Source of the DNA: a virus
Reading direction: 5' to 3' (one strand)
Virus record (IMG/VR): IMGVR_UViG_3300028920_000047
Coordinates: 32,001-96,000 of that record
DNA: 64,000 nucleotides
Position 1 is the stretch's first letter, and every line of letters begins with the position of its first letter. The position numbers were made by a program, and so were the translations under genes. The notes under the pieces are model-generated. The model worked only from the letters and a program-made list of their open reading frames with translations. It was not told the DNA's origin and did no database searches. This document shows, one piece after another, positions 8,217 through 23,191 of the stretch.

Positions 8217-10337
8217 TTAGTAATCCGCCTTTAATTTACTAACAAACTGTGGCCAGGTGTATTTTGTATTGGCGCCATAGGTTTTATTCATCATTTCTCG
8301 TTTTGTTGAGGTTGCTGTTATTCCCAAACCTGAATTTATGGGTGAAGAAAGAATTCGCCTAACCACTGCGGCTGATGGAACATTTGTTATTGTATCTGGC
8401 ACAGTTACAGTTGAATAATTAACCGTTATAGTATCGGCTGTTTCCAATCCCATTTCAACCATACTACCAAAATATACAGAAATACTATCACCCAATCCGT
8501 TTAAGGAAGTCGTTCCTGACCAAACTGCACCAGCAGTAGGATATGACTGAAAAACCATATTATTAAAAATTACAATCACATCTCTACCATTTTGAGCGGT
8601 AGAAGTTCCACCAATGGTTATTATTGATATATTTGTATCGTGATTATCTGGGGGATAAGTTATTGCAATAGACAGATATTTGACTGTTATTGAATCTTTT
8701 GCAATATTATCTCCATCGAAAAAAACAACTAAAACACTATCATAATAATCATTCAAACTTGCTGTGCCAGACCAAGCGTTTGAACTGATATTCACAGAAT
8801 CGTTATATACCCAACCCATACCGTTTTCGCCAACATATATGCCAATTGAGTCATAATCGTCTGCGTTTGTAGTAGTTCCGCCGATATGTATTAAAACTAT
8901 TTCTGTTTCGTGATTGTCGTCTGGATATGTAATACTCATTGCTATATAAGTAACACCAATAGTGTCATAAGCGATATTAGTTCCATCATAGAATTTTACC
9001 ATAATAGAATCTGCACCAGTCAGACTTGCAGTTCCACTCCAAGCATCACTTGAAACTTCAACTGTATCTTGATATACTCCATTGACATATATTCCAACGC
9101 TATCGTGGTCGGTAGCGTCTGTTGTTACACCATCAATTTTTATCAGTTTTTGTGTTGTGTCGTGGTTATCAGCAGGGTGTGAAAATGATATAGTCGGAAC
9201 AGATGGAGAAGGATATTGACCATTAAAAAAAAGAGTAAAAAACGAATCGCCGGTCGCATCAAAACCAACAGTATCACTACCAGTTACCAAAGGCACTGTT
9301 TCAGCACTATCGCAGTTCGGCTCTAATAAATCCGTTCCTGATTCCCTTGCAAAAAGATTAAGTCCAACAGGGTCGCCCGTAATATTATACACCACATTGT
9401 CCGTATCATTATAATATATATCTTGTCCATTGTCTTGATTAATATAATAATCATCAAAATATGAATTTCTAATATAATTAGATTTAATTTGCGAATTATA
9501 ATCTTTTTCATCGTGTTCATTAAGCCACGAACCTGCCGAATAACAGCTATCAAACACATTTGAATCGCAAGCACCAGCACCAGTAAAAAATATGTTTGCA
9601 TACCACGAAGTCGTGCCAGTAACCTTTATATTATATACATAATTGTTCCGAAAATATGATGTATCACTTGTATCGTTATCATAGAGAAAAATGTTCCCGC
9701 GAGTATTTTTAAACACAGTAATAAAATTATAAGTAAAAACTGATTTTTTACCAAACCAATCCCCATAAGTACTACCACCATTAAATCGCATAAATCCTAT
9801 AAATCCAGTTGAATCACTTGTAGCAGAGTATATTACTTGGTTTGAGCCTGAATTTTGTTTTAACCTGCCTCCATTAGAAATAAAAATAACCGGTTTTTCG
9901 ATAGTCAGTCGTGAACTGATATAATAACTATCACCAATAAATGTCGAATAATCAAAAGTTCCAAATTTGATACACCACACAACGATTTGAGTTCCGTCAG
10001 CAGGGACAGTATCATCAGCATAGTCATAAGCATAGGGAATTGATTTAAGCGGAGCAGGCGGAGTTGCTTGATTAGAATTGTTATTTGCGTCATTGCCGGC
10101 TGCAAATGTAAGTGATGTATCAACCATAGTATATTCGCCACAGGTGCAGTTCATAGATAAGTCGGCAAAATCAACATTAACAAGAGGGAAAGCACAAGTT
10201 GTTTCACTTCCGCCATTAACAACTATTCTATACAATTTTTGCCCGTTGACATATATTGTATCCCACGCATATATATTTGACAAAAACAGCAACATAAATA
10301 ATATAGATATTATAATTCTCATTTTATTTTTCCTCAA
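8217..10337 (-). CDS. exported beta-helix plus Ig-like repeat protein (paralog of 12245-14545)
   Basis: Sec-type signal peptide (..SNIYA|W); Asn-rich beta-helix-like region; three P.DNHDT Ig-like repeats. Confidence 0.75.
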   Translation of the reverse strand: MRKNKMRIIISILFMLLFLSNIYAWDTIYVNGQKLYRIVVNGGSETTCAFPLVNVDFADLSMNCTCGEYTMVDTSLTFAAGNDANNNSNQATPPAPLKSIPYAYDYADDTVPADGTQIVVWCIKFGTFDYSTFIGDSYYISSRLTIEKPVIFISNGGRLKQNSGSNQVIYSATSDSTGFIGFMRFNGGSTYGDWFGKKSVFTYNFITVFKNTRGNIFLYDNDTSDTSYFRNNYVYNIKVTGTTSWYANIFFTGAGACDSNVFDSCYSAGSWLNEHDEKDYNSQIKSNYIRNSYFDDYYINQDNGQDIYYNDTDNVVYNITGDPVGLNLFARESGTDLLEPNCDSAETVPLVTGSDTVGFDATGDSFFTLFFNGQYPSPSVPTISFSHPADNHDTTQKLIKIDGVTTDATDHDSVGIYVNGVYQDTVEVSSDAWSGTASLTGADSIMVKFYDGTNIAYDTIGVTYIAMSITYPDDNHETEIVLIHIGGTTTNADDYDSIGIYVGENGMGWVYNDSVNISSNAWSGTASLNDYYDSVLVVFFDGDNIAKDSITVKYLSIAITYPPDNHDTNISIITIGGTSTAQNGRDVIVIFNNMVFQSYPTAGAVWSGTTSLNGLGDSISVYFGSMVEMGLETADTITVNYSTVTVPDTITNVPSAAVVRRILSSPINSGLGITATSTKREMMNKTYGANTKYTWPQFVSKLKADY

Positions 10338-10664
10338 AGGTTACTAAATTTCCAGTTGCAATTCCACCAATAATTATATATCGAAAATGCCATTGTATCT
10401 TAAATGGAAACTCATCACATTCAATTATCTTTTTTGTCGGTATTTTTGTTCTGATATATCCAGGCCGAAATTGAAAATTGTCTTTACAGGCATAATATAC
10501 TATGTCGGAATCGTTTGTCGTTGAATATACATACAATTCGCTATCGGCAGTTACAATTTCAAACAATATATCAACCGAATTGGAATCGCTGATTATCCAA
10601 CTATCGCCAGTAACATTATCCACAACATAGTTGTCCGCAAAACAAACCGAACACATAAGTAATA
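9016..10664. repeat. ~1.65-kb direct repeat, copy 1
   Basis: near-identical to 13224-14872 at a constant offset of 4208 bp. Confidence 0.9.
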
Positions 10665-22600: not shown

Positions 22601-23191
22601 ATCCTGGGCCACATCCCCAAAAACACTTTCTAATAAAACTGAAACAGATTCTCCCCGGCTATTTAAAGCAGCTGTTCCACACCACGACGGGCTGTCGATA
22701 TCTAACGTAAAATAAATAGAGGTACAAATAGCACCATCAACATAAACATGAATATGACTACCGGTACCACAATTAGCTGTAGTACCACCTATAATAACAA
22801 TAGAAACATTTGTATCATGATTATCAAGAGGATATGTTATAGCAACACCAATAGAAGAAGTATCATAATAGTCAACATGAATAGTATCATAACCAATCAA
22901 TATACCATCATAGAATCTGGTAACAATTATGTTACCAATACCAGTTAAAGCGGCAGTACCTGAAAAAGAACTATCAGCCGCGATACTATTACTTGATTGC
23001 AAAATATTATTAGTATAAATATGAACAGAATCACCTATATCATAAACACTATTAGCGGTTCCTTGTATAGTAATTACCCTAACATTAGTATCATGATTAT
23101 CCACAGGTGAGGTTATAGTTACCGTATCCGCGAAAATCTGGTAAATAAAAAAAGCAAAAAACAATAATAATAAAATAACAATTTTTTTCAT
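16679..23191 (-). CDS. giant exported Ig-like tandem repeat protein (2170 aa, about 22 repeats)
   Basis: signal peptide ..YQIFA|D; ~92-aa repeats I..P.DNHDTN..I.GT..GDTV.IY.N..WSGT..GDSV.V.L.D.FG..YDTITV.Y; AGGAGG RBS. Confidence 0.85.
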   Translation of the reverse strand: MKKIVILLLLFFAFFIYQIFADTVTITSPVDNHDTNVRVITIQGTANSVYDIGDSVHIYTNNILQSSNSIAADSSFSGTAALTGIGNIIVTRFYDGILIGYDTIHVDYYDTSSIGVAITYPLDNHDTNVSIVIIGGTTANCGTGSHIHVYVDGAICTSIYFTLDIDSPSWCGTAALNSRGESVSVLLESVFGDVAQDTITIDYWGNPGINITLPANNSDTDIQIFTIYGTTNDAQAGDTIQIYTDVGLNTTIVIVDDTGNWSGTACVSNYGESVIVIFNGYSGTARDTITVNYFSTPTITINYPGNNHDTNTGIINIGGSVTHAITNDTVVIYTNATYCTTVIVSGYNGSWAGTVSVSNLNDSVWVVLHDQFGRTATDTNVVNYYNTPSIGISYPTNNHDTNINIVNIGGTTAEVGLGSYVYIYNSAGDSTDIFTITADSQNWSGTVSLFSQVGDSVMVILIDQFGVKVYDTITIKYWGIANVQINEPSNNHDTIVNIITINGTTYGSKTGDTVVIYTNTTVNTTVVLASDSGNFSGTAYISNLGDSVWVIMYNQFNARAYDTIVLNFIDTPLAGIIVPEHNSDTNLKTNLITGTTVGTSSGDTVVIYVNNVLNSIAVISGYDNNFSGTAYITNRYDSITVEVHDQFGRNGYDTINVSYVEVQITSPSDGTDTNTKIANVSGTTYNTYAGDTVYIYCDTQFNCLFVLLSDSGNFSGTVSLQHGNSRVWVKILTDSGNIQYDTISVGYFAQPQISFSMIDEYDTNTKSPTFIGTTYNTSIGDTIKIYVGSSYQTQTNLTADSGSWGCTVALSNMSDSVWVKLETRFDSILYDTISVFLHWAGITNITNNTDTNSDSISNVNIDWVGNSSNDTIYLYVNSSLCTSFVTTNETGTFNGTATLTGQADKLWLKMEPYIGVDTNHGGDSVAYDTITINYFANPVLTITYPADNHDTYISIINIGGTSYDVQVNDTVEIFVNNVLNTTVIITSLNGNFFGTAAFSDYGSNLVVKLHDQFGRNTYDTIVIDYFKTPDIAITSPANNHDTYLSTITISGTTVECHGGDTVEITNMYTRSTVYLLTGDSGTWSGTVAISGYNDSIVAILHDTYNRTAYDTISINYFGTPNIGINLSNPTDTNIQKNVISGTSYNTRDSDLVRIYVNTILQATARIVGDSGNWVDTPIIFVGIGDSLVVKLEDSFGRVYYETRTINYYSIPTIQITVPADNHDTNNSFFIIGGIASPTKAGDTVEIYTNTNLNTTVVIVSDNANWSGTAGVSSKGDSLWVVLHDSFGNILYDTITVNKYQTNPGVGIDTPATAYDTCVKVITIYGTSKSSKVGDRVRLYVNGILNSSYTLTADTGSWSGTVSLTNIGDSILARLTNFDSDVYDTITINYIGAPSVVITNFPNNHDTNIQIINVICTTKNTMLGDTIYIYVDNVLNTYAAITYYNQSFSGTAALSETSNNVSVKLVTALTGSVIYDTITVDYYGTILARISYPSNNTDTKISINTIHGTTVNSRNGDTIVLRVNGLTNSITHILTDSGTWSGTVVVGGSDSISVTLEDQFGRTVGNTVTISYYATPTISIGIPGNVNTDTNISMNWINGTTEWSQLGDTISIYVNNILNTTVYVVSDSMSWSGTVVVVSKGDSVTVKLESVLYKTSYYDTITISYYPVFTMAIMSPDTGHDTNISVITISGTTENSKVGDTVQIFDYTGTMNTNIILTSDSGSFSGTCYIAGTPYPIVVAKLANSFNNNLYNDTIQLHYLSETLSLEITYPVDNHDTNTNIIIIGGTTCQTVANVDTVYIYVNNVLNSKYTISADSDNWNGTVYVSSYGDSVSTKLVNQFGQVVQDTITVNCFANNPEIVITSMIDNNDTNVDSGTIFGTSNYSIAGDTLLIFVNSNINDTIILTENNENWSGTFQLNGIGDSVWVKLYNRYDSKVYDTITFSYVLPPSYISITYPDTNSHDTIVSRIIIMGTTRNTRLGDTVQIYVNSVLSSSTNVVSDSGSWIGYANLEGKGDSVIVKLIDQFGQVAYDSITVNFSGNPRLTTYPKPYMERIVQNKVLQAYWDGKGNTYPAIVVVDIHAFNDSTIAQLSAVMEDLYDSGLYEVYDSQILSYATNSAGSDSILINVRTTHRIYIAKTAVYTIIIERFGVNGSACSDGRVDEIEKVYYTVP

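What the first reader, a model, noticed from the sequence alone, without database searches (positions are those of the whole stretch)
8217..23191. Seven Sec-signal-peptide proteins clustered in a phage late operon
Seen: the 706, 121, 482, 766, 122, 545 and 2170-aa ORFs all start with a basic-hydrophobic-cleavage-site leader (IYA|W, CFA|D, LFS|E, SYA|D, IFA|D). They have Ig-like, beta-helix or fibre-like bodies, several with paired Cys. Established: tailed-phage virion proteins fold in the cytoplasm and normally lack signal peptides. Inference: this ~15-kb module encodes an exported apparatus. It could be a surface filament or adhesin coat on the infected cell (lysogenic conversion or superinfection shielding), or fibres matured in the periplasm and picked up by virions at lysis.
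Basis: partly seen in the sequence, partly recalled or inferred. Interest (0 to 1): 0.75.

Follow-up and report, generated by a model that had tools for sequence, protein, structure and literature searches.

The report
Phage fibre and adhesin genes with export signals
An uncultured marine-sediment phage carries a 15-kb block of fibre-like and Ig-repeat proteins that all begin with ordinary bacterial secretion signals, so they probably work outside the cytoplasm, which is unusual for tailed-phage fibre proteins; what they do there is unknown.

Summary
Seven consecutive minus-strand ORFs (8217-23191) start with n-h-c leaders of 18-24 residues with small residues at -1 and -3. Only 13 of 130 ORFs in the 106.6-kb contig pass the same rule filter. 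The ATG-started ORFs have Shine-Dalgarno sites in front of the leader ATG.

The block is a 2170-aa protein (leader, 22 Ig-like repeats, 134-aa tail) plus two diverged copies of a triplet: a fibre, a ~100-aa protein, and a protein with an orphan domain plus Ig repeats. Two tiny membrane ORFs fill the gaps.

It belongs to the phage: depth is uniform, independent contigs bridge both edges, and GC3 matches the rest of the genome. It sits between the halves of an intein-split terminase.

Only the Ig repeat has relatives, in secreted (T9SS-tagged) proteins of low-GC uncultured bacteria. The fibres, small proteins and orphan domain have no homologues.

I read it as a Sec-exported accessory adhesin/fibre module. 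Export itself: about 0.75. Acting at the infected cell's envelope: about 0.45. Joining virions after lysis: about 0.25.

No trained predictor, structure of the fibres, host or relatives were available. This scan has noted export signals on phage tail proteins many times on other DNA; I found no description in print. Beta-helix and paired-cysteine claims were not supported.

The parts
16679..23191 (-). 2170-aa protein: 21-aa leader (MKK + hydrophobic core + IFA|D), 22 tandem Ig-like repeats (aa 24-2036, 29-51% identical to one another), and a 134-aa non-repeat C-terminal domain
   Evidence: repeat map and alignment A2; AF2, pLDDT 95; Ig/FN3-like sandwich; TM about 0.73 to glucodextranase domain B, CbhA Fn3 modules, HPI S-layer; Glucodextran_B, E 6e-6, just under the cut-off; GGAGG before the ATG
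16563..16679 (-). 38-aa single-pass membrane ORF; its ATG overlaps the stop of the 2170-aa gene (TAATG)
   Evidence: hydrophobic stretch followed by a basic tail; fills most of the 140-nt gap
14901..16538 (-). 545-aa fibre-like protein: 19-aa leader (SYA|D), fibre motifs (AFVGDGSLLTG; YVGFGTLLPDEKIHV), distal non-repeat end
   Evidence: about 130-aa block 39% identical to the 482-aa protein; no homologue
14532..14900 (-). 122-aa small protein with 19-aa leader (CFA|D); its start abuts the 545-aa gene and its end overlaps the 766-aa gene
   Evidence: 89% identical to the 121-aa paralogue; no family
12245..14545 (-). 766-aa protein (likely ATG start at 14530): leader (IYA|W), orphan domain of about 355 aa, one Ig repeat, then a second Ig repeat split by a nested insert of about 110 aa, then a short tail
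   Evidence: database gene call of 761 aa
10790..12238 (-). 482-aa fibre-like protein: 20-aa leader (LFS|E), motifs AFIGDGSGLTG and HVGIGIANPSDSFHV, distal domain
   Evidence: AGGAG before the ATG
10689..10790 (-). 33-aa single-pass membrane ORF, joined by TAATG overlaps to the 482-aa gene upstream and the 121-aa gene downstream
10324..10689 (-). 121-aa small protein with 18-aa leader (CFA|D)
8217..10337 (-). 706-aa protein (likely ATG start at 10322): leader (IYA|W), the same orphan domain as the 766-aa protein (about 90% identical over aa 1-460), three Ig repeats (aa 383-642), 60-aa tail
   Evidence: no homologue of the N-terminal domain among 1.84 billion representatives; beta-helix only as an embedding lead
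6524..6895 (-). 123-aa DUF1353 protein with a lipoprotein-like leader (…FFLIHC|S), 1.3 kb downstream of the cassette; possibly part of the exported set
   Evidence: PF07087, E 1e-4, 22.1 bits, just under the 22.5-bit cut-off; phrog_1158, annotated 'tail assembly chaperone', E 3.6e-6
23509..24429 (-). Upstream flank: N-terminal half of the large terminase plus an intein N-part
   Evidence: tblastn to terminase and 'intein splicing region' genes of Bacillus phage HSE3, Listeria phage LIS04, Streptococcus phage GXN1; weak intein_Nterm hit
2886..4325 (-). Downstream flank: C-terminal half of the large terminase, followed by the T4-type portal gene (1207-2862)
   Evidence: 32-33% identity to TerL of LIS04, SP-15 and HSE3; Portal_T4, E 2e-37

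Best explanation
The block is a resident accessory module of a large uncultured myophage. It encodes proteins built to work outside the cytoplasm.

Inferred sequence of events:
1. The nine co-oriented, translationally coupled genes are expressed with the structural genes.
2. The host Sec system translocates the seven large products.
3. Signal peptidase I removes the 18-24-residue leaders.
4. The acidic, Ser/Thr/Gly-rich mature proteins fold in the envelope compartment.

What the sequence shows:
- One product is a giant chain of 22 Ig-like domains.
- Two are fibres with T5-pb1/MAT-type repeat motifs and distinct distal ends.
- Two carry an orphan N-terminal domain plus Ig repeats, with different C-terminal parts.
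- Two are ~100-residue partners, coupled to the gene that follows them.

My preferred reading is inference. They act as adhesins or fibres at the envelope of the infected cell, or are released from it. Possible roles are sticking cells or debris together, masking or binding surface glycans, or preparing neighbouring cells. On this reading they are not built onto the tail in the cytoplasm.

The duplication, with divergence in the distal parts, suggests selection on what they bind.
For: Leaders:
- Present on 7 of 7 consecutive genes, against 13 of 130 genome-wide.
- Shine-Dalgarno sites precede the leader ATGs.
- The cleavage-site motif is kept between paralogues while the hydrophobic core drifts.
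- The first mature residues are acidic or neutral, and there is no second membrane segment.

The block is part of the phage:
- Logan contigs of 40.9 kb and 11.9 kb bridge both cassette edges at a uniform depth of about 93-98x.
- GC3 is 0.20 inside against 0.20-0.22 outside.

The Ig repeat is an extracytoplasmic bacterial domain type. Its only relatives are MAG proteins with similar F/I/L-rich leaders and T9SS C-terminal domains, or a signal peptide plus repeats.

The cassette is not the core tail:
- Sheath, tube, hub and the 409 and 238-aa tail fibres lack leaders.
- The leader-bearing fibres lack the N-terminal domain that those two fibres share.
- The cassette lies outside the tail genes, next to a cluster of membrane proteins.

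Against: - No trained predictor and no experiment. The leader calls rest on rules that I wrote.
- No route beyond the inner membrane is visible: no T9SS C-terminal domain, autotransporter barrel, sortase signal or lipobox on the seven proteins.
- The host, and whether it has one or two membranes, is unknown.
- Several features look like a receptor-binding-protein cassette rather than a cell adhesin: fibre plus small coupled gene, duplication with distal divergence, and a leader-bearing DUF1353 protein whose PHROG family is annotated as a tail assembly chaperone.
- An eighth leader-bearing fibre-motif protein (399 aa, contig 103837-105036) lies between two ordinary tail fibre genes.
- In another viral contig (L110) three leader-bearing proteins occupy canonical tail-tip positions.
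Confidence: 0.45

Rival explanations
1. Export, then assembly. The proteins are true host-recognition fibres and decorations of the virion. They are exported by Sec and fold in the periplasm with exported helpers (the 121/122-aa proteins and the DUF1353 protein). They dock onto finished particles only when lysis mixes the compartments.
For: - RBP-like anatomy: fibre motifs, distal knobs, a small coupled gene, and triplet duplication with distal divergence.
- The 2170-aa protein has its Ig chain first and a unique C-terminal domain last. This is the order I recall for T4 Hoc (my own knowledge, not checked here).
- The 399-aa leader-bearing fibre-motif protein lies between signal-less tail fibre genes.
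- The leader-bearing DUF1353 protein matches a PHROG annotated as a tail assembly chaperone.
- The cassette lies beside putative lysis and membrane genes.
- Leaders on proteins in tail-tip positions recur in other viral contigs and in earlier notes of this scan.
- T4 fibreless particles accept free fibres in vitro (my own knowledge), so late docking is physically possible.
Against: - No docking domain is shared with any virion protein.
- The phage already has signal-less fibres.
- No case of a tailed phage assembling fibres this way turned up in the literature.
- Cys is not enriched and not paired, so a need for disulfide bonds is not evident.
- Later checks of similar claims in this scan priced this reading at 6-30%.
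Confidence: 0.25
2. The hydrophobic N-termini are not cleaved export signals. They may be uncleaved anchors, or hydrophobic assembly or membrane-contact segments of ordinary virion fibres made in the cytoplasm.
For: - The uncharged stretch (core plus c-region) is 16-18 residues, the low end of what can span a membrane.
- The same rule filter also passes first transmembrane helices of obvious membrane proteins, such as the Vut_1 transporter. It is therefore not specific.
Against: - Basic residues before the core and acidic residues after it predict that the body is translocated, not kept inside.
- All seven have Ala or Ser at -1 and a permitted residue at -3.
- The site is conserved between paralogues.
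- The small ~100-aa proteins carry the leader too.
- Bacterial relatives of the Ig proteins have the same style of leader together with secretion tags.
Confidence: 0.15
3. Artefact: a piece of bacterial DNA encoding surface proteins was mis-joined into a phage contig.
For: The cassette has a higher total GC (0.32-0.37 against 0.26-0.30). Its Ig repeat has relatives only in bacteria.
Against: - Independent Logan contigs cross both edges at the same depth.
- GC3 is identical to the rest, and the GC excess lies at codon position 2, that is, in amino-acid composition.
- Gene spacing is tight and orientation is shared with the terminase halves on both sides.
- The fibres and the orphan domain have no bacterial homologues at all.
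Confidence: 0.02

Closest known systems
Bdellovibrio bacteriovorus MAT (mosaic adhesive trimer) fibres (Caulton et al. 2024, PMC10769870)
   Same: Phage-tail-fibre-like proteins that start with a signal peptide, are multi-copy with varied distal tips, and work on a cell surface. The fibre shaft has a capping-loop motif (V-G-G/N-pi-x-x-P-x-x-x-L) that resembles the V-G-I/F-G-x-x-x-P-x-x-x-hydrophobic motif here.
   Different: MATs are encoded by a bacterium, not a phage. All 21 share a ~130-aa domain right after the signal peptide, and no such shared domain exists here. Many MATs end in an S74 chaperone, which was not found here. There is no sequence match to solved MAT chains. The motif here is one residue longer.
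Phage-encoded exported proteins next to tail genes: lambda Lom, T5 Llp, phi80/N15 Cor (my own knowledge, not checked here)
   Same: Signal-peptide or lipoprotein genes embedded among tail or fibre genes. They act at the envelope of the infected or lysogenic cell (receptor masking, adhesion) and are not virion parts.
   Different: Those are single small proteins with no fibre or Ig architecture. Here there are seven large fibre or adhesin-like proteins in a 15-kb block, with no homology to them.
Streptococcus mitis phage SM1 PblA/PblB (PMC2920869 and references therein)
   Same: Phage-encoded structural-type proteins that end up on the bacterial surface as adhesins.
   Different: PblA and PblB reach the surface through holin and lysin permeabilisation and bind wall choline. 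Here a Sec leader is present on each protein.
Signal peptides on Porphyromonas phage genes (Matrishin et al. 2023, PMC10367356)
   Same: Phage genes with predicted Sec signal peptides, read as envelope modifiers.
   Different: That paper names capsid, spanin and unknown genes, not fibres. The host is a Bacteroidota member with the Q-rule. Here no mature N-terminus is Gln, and the phage uses Shine-Dalgarno sites heavily.
T4 Hoc and other Ig-like decorations of phage particles (my own knowledge; a Hoc protein and a split head outer capsid protein appear among weak fold matches)
   Same: A chain of Ig-like domains followed by a distinct C-terminal domain; the fold is a generic Ig/FN3 sandwich.
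   Different: Hoc has no signal peptide and 3-4 domains, not 22. There is no sequence similarity.
T9SS cargo proteins of uncultured low-GC bacteria that carry the same Ig repeat (P0010, HPQ18064.1, and others)
   Same: Same repeat family (36-52% identity; profile E down to 1e-222) and similar F/I/L-rich leaders.
   Different: The bacterial proteins end in a T9SS sorting domain, which the phage proteins lack. The genes sampled from those MAGs largely lack Shine-Dalgarno sites, unlike the phage.

Membership tests
Sec / signal peptidase I substrates | Basic n-region, hydrophobic core of 7-15 residues, c-region with small residues at -1 and -3, total length about 18-30 | tested here: met
   Rule filter: all seven (and the 399-aa protein) pass. 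Cores are 12-15 residues; -1 is Ala or Ser; -3 is I, C, L or S.
Sec / signal peptidase I substrates | The leader is actually translated | tested here: met
   AGGAG or GGAGG 6-9 nt before the leader ATG of the 482, 545, 2170 and 399-aa ORFs, and a weaker, more distant GAGG/AGGA before that of the 122-aa ORF; stop/start coupling for the 706 and 766-aa ORFs.
Sec / signal peptidase I substrates | Call by a trained predictor (SignalP, DeepTMHMM) and experimental cleavage | not testable with these tools
   No such predictor was offered and the phage is uncultured.
Bdellovibrio MAT fibre superfamily | Conserved beta-rich domain of about 130 aa directly after the signal peptide | tested here: not met
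   The alignment of the three fibre-type proteins shows no shared region after the leader; phmmer among them finds none.
Bdellovibrio MAT fibre superfamily | Trimeric beta-helical shaft with capping-loop motif; S74 chaperone or an adhesive tip | tested here: inconclusive
   A similar but longer motif is present. No Peptidase_S74 hit.
Phage tail fibres (PHROG or Pfam tail fibre families) | Profile match to a tail fibre family | tested here: not met
   No PHROG or Pfam tail fibre hit for any of the seven. The signal-less 409-aa gene of the same phage does hit tail fibre families.
Phage tail fibres (PHROG or Pfam tail fibre families) | N-terminal virion-attachment domain shared with other fibres of the phage | tested here: not met
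   The 409 and 238-aa fibres share an N-terminal domain (33% identity). None of the leader-bearing proteins has it.
T9SS cargo | C-terminal sorting domain (type A, TIGR04183/PF18962, or type B) | tested here: not met
   No hit in Pfam or NCBIfam at E up to 0.05-0.1. The bacterial relatives do end in such a domain.
Ig-like / FN3-like beta-sandwich repeats | Seven- or eight-stranded sandwich fold, in tandem copies | tested here: met
   AF2 on 26 repeats gave pLDDT 95.3 with 8 strands. Foldseek TM is 0.70-0.75 to glucodextranase domain B, CbhA Fn3 modules and the HPI S-layer, though all E-values are above 1e-3.
Right-handed beta-helix (pectate-lyase-like) enzymes, for the orphan domain of the 706 and 766-aa proteins | Profile or fold match to a beta-helix family | tested here: inconclusive
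   Only language-model neighbours at 0.90-0.92. No Pfam hit. AF2 gave pLDDT 27. No homologues from which to build a profile.

The most novel reading that the evidence does not exclude
Part of a tailed phage's host-recognition gear is made outside the cytoplasm. Fibres, an Ig-chain decoration and their small helpers are exported by Sec, mature in the envelope compartment, and are fitted to finished particles only at lysis. The cassette would then be a swappable, duplicated 'periplasmic fibre kit'.
Probability: 0.2. Interest if true: 0.85.

Novelty: new variant of a known kind. Interest (0 to 1): 0.55.

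Why it matters
Textbook assembly of tailed phages is wholly cytoplasmic. Phage proteins with signal peptides are usually small envelope modifiers, lysis proteins or toxins.

A 15-kb, duplicated block of large fibre and Ig-chain proteins that all carry export signals means one of two things. Either the phage invests heavily in dressing or gluing the surface of the cell it is killing, or some host-recognition parts take an extracytoplasmic route to the particle.

Either way the same design recurs: here, in another viral contig (L110), and in many earlier notes of this scan. 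That makes the question testable with leader-reporter fusions and virion proteomics in any culturable relative.

It also matters for annotation. Such genes are easily mislabelled as plain tail fibres or as bacterial contamination.

Tried and rejected
Homologue searches that found nothing beyond the contig itself:
- 545-aa fibre: phage tblastn, 5.8-billion-protein word search, PDB.
- Orphan domain of the 706-aa protein: (only low-complexity scraps).
- 121-aa protein: atlas.
- Block shared by the two fibres, in IMG/VR.
- C-terminal domain of the 2170-aa protein, in four MAGs.

Other dead ends:
- P0014 (signal peptide plus repeats) looked like an orthologue of the 2170-aa protein. Its non-repeat tail is not significantly similar (z = -0.4), and its contig could not be fetched.
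- AF2 of the whole 706-aa protein failed (pLDDT 27).
- Portal searches gave only 24-29% relatives, so there is no synteny to compare.

Glycosylation ideas:
- The Campylobacter-type sequon D/E-x-N-x-S/T is not enriched.
- The Bacteroidota motif D-S/T-[AILVMT] is enriched (z = 11 in the 2170-aa protein). But it sits in conserved repeat positions (GDSV, YDTI, GDTV), so the copies are not independent. Heavy Shine-Dalgarno use also argues against a Bacteroidota host.

Host:
- The four low-GC MAGs rich in the repeat seem to lack Shine-Dalgarno sites and have no other cassette homologues, apart from one fibre-motif match (E 2.4e-5) in one MAG. They are not proposed as hosts.

Remaining checks:
- No phage signal peptidase or DsbA in the fragment.
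- The promoter and terminator scan was uninformative in this AT-rich DNA.
- No RNA holder was listed among sequencing runs.
- Literature searches for virion proteins with signal peptides found nothing apt.

The planned trimer test of the 482-aa fibre was therefore not run.

Full report
**What and where**

The window is bases 32001-96000 of a single 106,581-bp viral contig. IMG/VR classes it as linear, and CheckV rates it about 49% complete. It is therefore a fragment of a larger phage and must not be read as a circle.

It comes from a marine-sediment metagenome, with one holder run. The following features mark it as a bacterial myophage:
- a T4-type portal (PF07230, E 2e-37);
- a tail sheath (phrog_23);
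- a tail fibre;
- RecA, family-A polymerase and SbcCD.

Its closest, still distant, relatives by terminase and portal are Bacillus phage SP-15, Listeria phage LIS04 and Bacillus phage HSE3, at 29-33% identity. IMG/VR and JGI metagenomes hold nothing closer than 28% for the portal.

**Checking the observation**

The seven ORFs are there, and all have strongly hydrophobic N-termini. I wrote a classical-rule filter: a non-negative n-region, an uncharged core of at least 8 residues, small residues at -1 and -3, and a total length of 15-32. It passes 13 of 130 ORFs.

- Seven of the 13 are these consecutive genes.
- An eighth is a 399-aa protein at contig 103837-105036.
- The other five are two lipoprotein-like small proteins and three first helices of membrane proteins.

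Evidence that the leaders are translated:
- AGGAG or GGAGG lies 6-9 nt before the ATG of the 482, 545, 2170 and 399-aa ORFs. The 122-aa ORF has only a weaker GAGG/AGGA further upstream.
- 58% of all genes have such a site, against 6.6% of random windows.
- The 706 and 766-aa ORFs most likely start at the ATG five codons in, just after the stop of the preceding small gene. The public gene calls of 701 and 761 aa agree.

The first mature residues are acidic or neutral. Between the 121 and 122-aa paralogues the core has drifted while SVCFA|DNY is kept. No trained predictor was available, so this is a rule-based confirmation.

**Anatomy**

BLASTP among the seven proteins, an alignment and an iterated repeat profile give the following layout.

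| Part | Description |
|---|---|
| 2170-aa protein | Leader, 22 tandem repeats of about 87-92 aa (aa 24-2036; 29-51% identical to one another, so old), then a 134-aa tail |
| Triplet, copy 1 | 545-aa fibre, 122-aa small protein, 766-aa protein |
| Triplet, copy 2 | 482-aa fibre, 121-aa small protein, 706-aa protein |

Details of the triplets:
- The 706 and 766-aa proteins are about 90% identical over their first 460 residues. That stretch covers an orphan domain of about 355 aa and the first Ig repeat. After it they diverge.
- The 766-aa protein has an insert of about 110 aa nested in its second repeat.
- The two fibres share only a block of about 130 aa (39% identity) and short motifs.
- Two small ORFs (38 and 33 aa, each one membrane helix) fill the only gaps. 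They are joined to their neighbours by TAATG overlaps.

An AF2 model of the repeat, built on 26 copies, is confident (pLDDT 95). It is a generic Ig/FN3-like sandwich with TM about 0.73 to glucodextranase domain B, CbhA Fn3 modules and the HPI S-layer; phage Hoc appears among weaker matches.

The fibre calls rest on motifs only: F-x-G-D-G-S-x-L-T-G and V-G-I/F-G-x-x-x-P. These motifs are common in phage tail fibres and in a bacterial fibre ORF. The beta-helix idea for the orphan domain rests on language-model neighbours alone, and AF2 failed. Cys is not enriched and not paired.

**Is it really part of the phage?**

Yes.
- Logan contigs from the run cross both edges. A 40.9-kb piece runs from the flank into the 706-aa gene. 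An 11.9-kb piece runs from the 122-aa gene through the 545 and 2170-aa genes into the terminase half.
- The contigs break only at the duplicated segments, and depth is flat at about 93-98x.
- GC3 is 0.20 in the cassette and 0.20-0.22 elsewhere. The higher total GC lies at codon position 2, which reflects amino-acid composition.

**Surroundings**

The block lies between the two halves of an intein-split large terminase: 306 aa at 23509-24429 and 479 aa at 2886-4325. In LIS04 and HSE3 the halves are about 0.5-1.6 kb apart. Here they are 19.2 kb apart.

Between the cassette and the second half lie these genes:
- a protein with a C-terminal membrane helix;
- a phrog_3108 protein;
- a DUF1353 protein with a lipoprotein-like leader, whose PHROG family is annotated as a tail assembly chaperone (E 3.6e-6);
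- a two-helix coiled-coil protein;
- a three-helix protein.

This may be a lysis cluster, but I could not show it.

Sheath, tube, hub and the 409 and 238-aa tail fibres have no leader. Those two fibres share an N-terminal domain that none of the leader-bearing proteins has. The 399-aa leader-bearing protein, with two copies of the fibre motif, lies between those two fibre genes.

**Relatives**

Only the Ig repeat has relatives:
- proteins of uncultured bacteria, including a 1652-aa T9SS-tagged protein;
- lamin-tail and amylase-domain proteins;
- a 699-aa protein with a signal peptide plus repeats.

A degenerate DNA pattern for YDTIT[VI]NY shows the repeat expanded in four MAGs of 3-4.5 Mb, whose sampled loci have 25-36% GC. 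The leaders of those proteins look much like the phage's (MRK + F/I/L-rich core + FA). However, the genes sampled there mostly lack Shine-Dalgarno sites. Apart from one fibre-motif match (E 2.4e-5) in one MAG, these MAGs hold no homologue of the other cassette parts. They show that the domain is an extracytoplasmic bacterial type. They do not identify the host.

**How unusual is it?**

I sampled IMG/VR for the fibre motif. Of 66 ORFs whose N-terminus was in hand, 2 had a signal-like leader. Both lie in clear phage structural contexts. In one contig (L110), three consecutive proteins after the tape-measure gene carry leaders, one of them of lipoprotein type.

Earlier notes of this scan report the same theme on many other genomes, mostly podophages. 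Later checks priced the 'virion parts are exported' reading at 6-30%.

In print I found three related cases and no description of leader-bearing tail fibres in a tailed phage:
- signal peptides on Porphyromonas phage genes, read as envelope modifiers (PMC10367356);
- Bdellovibrio MAT fibres (PMC10769870);
- SM1 PblA/PblB, which reach the surface through holin and lysin (PMC2920869).

**Interpretation**

I rate export by Sec at about 0.75. It rests on the following:
- the leader features;
- their presence on every member, including the small partners;
- the charge pattern;
- the absence of further membrane segments;
- the kinship of the Ig repeat with secreted bacterial proteins.

What happens next is inference. 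I favour an accessory role at or beyond the envelope of the infected cell (0.45). The reasons are that the phage has a signal-less tail and fibres, the leader-bearing proteins lack the fibre attachment domain, and the block sits outside the tail genes.

The export-then-dock reading (0.25) is kept alive by the RBP-like design, by the position of the 399-aa gene, by the leader-bearing chaperone-family protein, and by the recurrence of leaders on tail-tip proteins elsewhere. An uncleaved-anchor reading (0.15) cannot be excluded without a predictor or experiment. Misassembly is very unlikely (0.02).

**Limits**

- No host is known, and no membrane architecture.
- No relatives were found for comparison.
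- There is no structure for the fibres or the orphan domain.
- There are no expression data.

Noticed in passing
window 23509-24429 (-) and 2886-4325 (-): The large terminase is split into two genes 19.2 kb apart, with intein-like ends. Relatives (LIS04, HSE3) have the same split with only about 0.5-1.6 kb between the halves (an endonuclease or small ORFs). In Streptococcus phage GXN1 the halves are about 60 kb apart.
   Followed up: partly
window 16563-16679 (-) and 10689-10790 (-): Two unannotated mini-ORFs (38 and 33 aa), each a single membrane helix, are joined by TAATG overlaps to the cassette genes around them. Their function is unknown.
   Followed up: partly
window 6524-6895 (-): A DUF1353 protein has a lipoprotein-like leader (cysteine at position 20). 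It matches phrog_1158, annotated 'tail assembly chaperone' (E 3.6e-6). This would be an exported member of a family linked to tail assembly.
   Followed up: partly
window 4325-8173 (-): A cluster of membrane proteins lies between the cassette and the second terminase half: a tail-anchored coiled-coil protein (173 aa), a two-helix coiled-coil protein (259 aa), a three-helix protein (178 aa) and a phrog_3108 protein (200 aa). It may be a lysis cassette. No endolysin, holin or spanin family was hit.
   Followed up: partly
contig 103837-105036 (L003:7837-9036, -), outside the window: An eighth leader-bearing protein (399 aa, CFS|D) carries two copies of the fibre motif. It sits between two signal-less tail fibre genes (238 and 409 aa) that share an N-terminal domain.
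   Followed up: partly
L110 (IMGVR_UViG_3300022413_000006), 3808-11352 (+): Another viral contig has three consecutive leader-bearing proteins (402, 1554 and 553 aa) directly after a tape-measure-like gene. One leader ends A|Q and one is of lipoprotein type.
   Followed up: partly
window 12959-13288 (aa 529-639 of the 766-aa protein): A domain of about 110 aa is nested inside the second Ig repeat of the 766-aa protein and is absent from the 706-aa paralogue. No family hit.
   Followed up: no
window 50132-52811 (+), and by eye 43077-44613 and 48195-49004: A Vut_1/YhhQ-type transporter (E 1.5e-53) and a weak TGT-like protein are present. ORFs that by eye look like QueD, QueE and QueC lie nearby. 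This is a likely 7-deazaguanine DNA modification set. Only the first two were checked with a tool.
   Followed up: partly
window 25495-27288 (+): A 597-aa protein has an N-terminal membrane helix, a run of about 100 residues of Asp and Glu, and Cys-x-x-Cys zinc-finger-like motifs. No family hit.
   Followed up: no
loci L018, L033, L065, L059 and others (genomes G001-G004): The same Ig repeat family is greatly expanded in four low-GC uncultured bacterial MAGs. One is labelled Dependentiae, although the genome is 3.8 Mb. The repeats sit in proteins with T9SS sorting domains.
   Followed up: partly
window 59359-59885 (+): Two adjacent small lipoprotein-like ORFs (73 and 107 aa; FITSC and FFYTC) overlap by 19 nt in the early or replication arm.
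   Followed up: no
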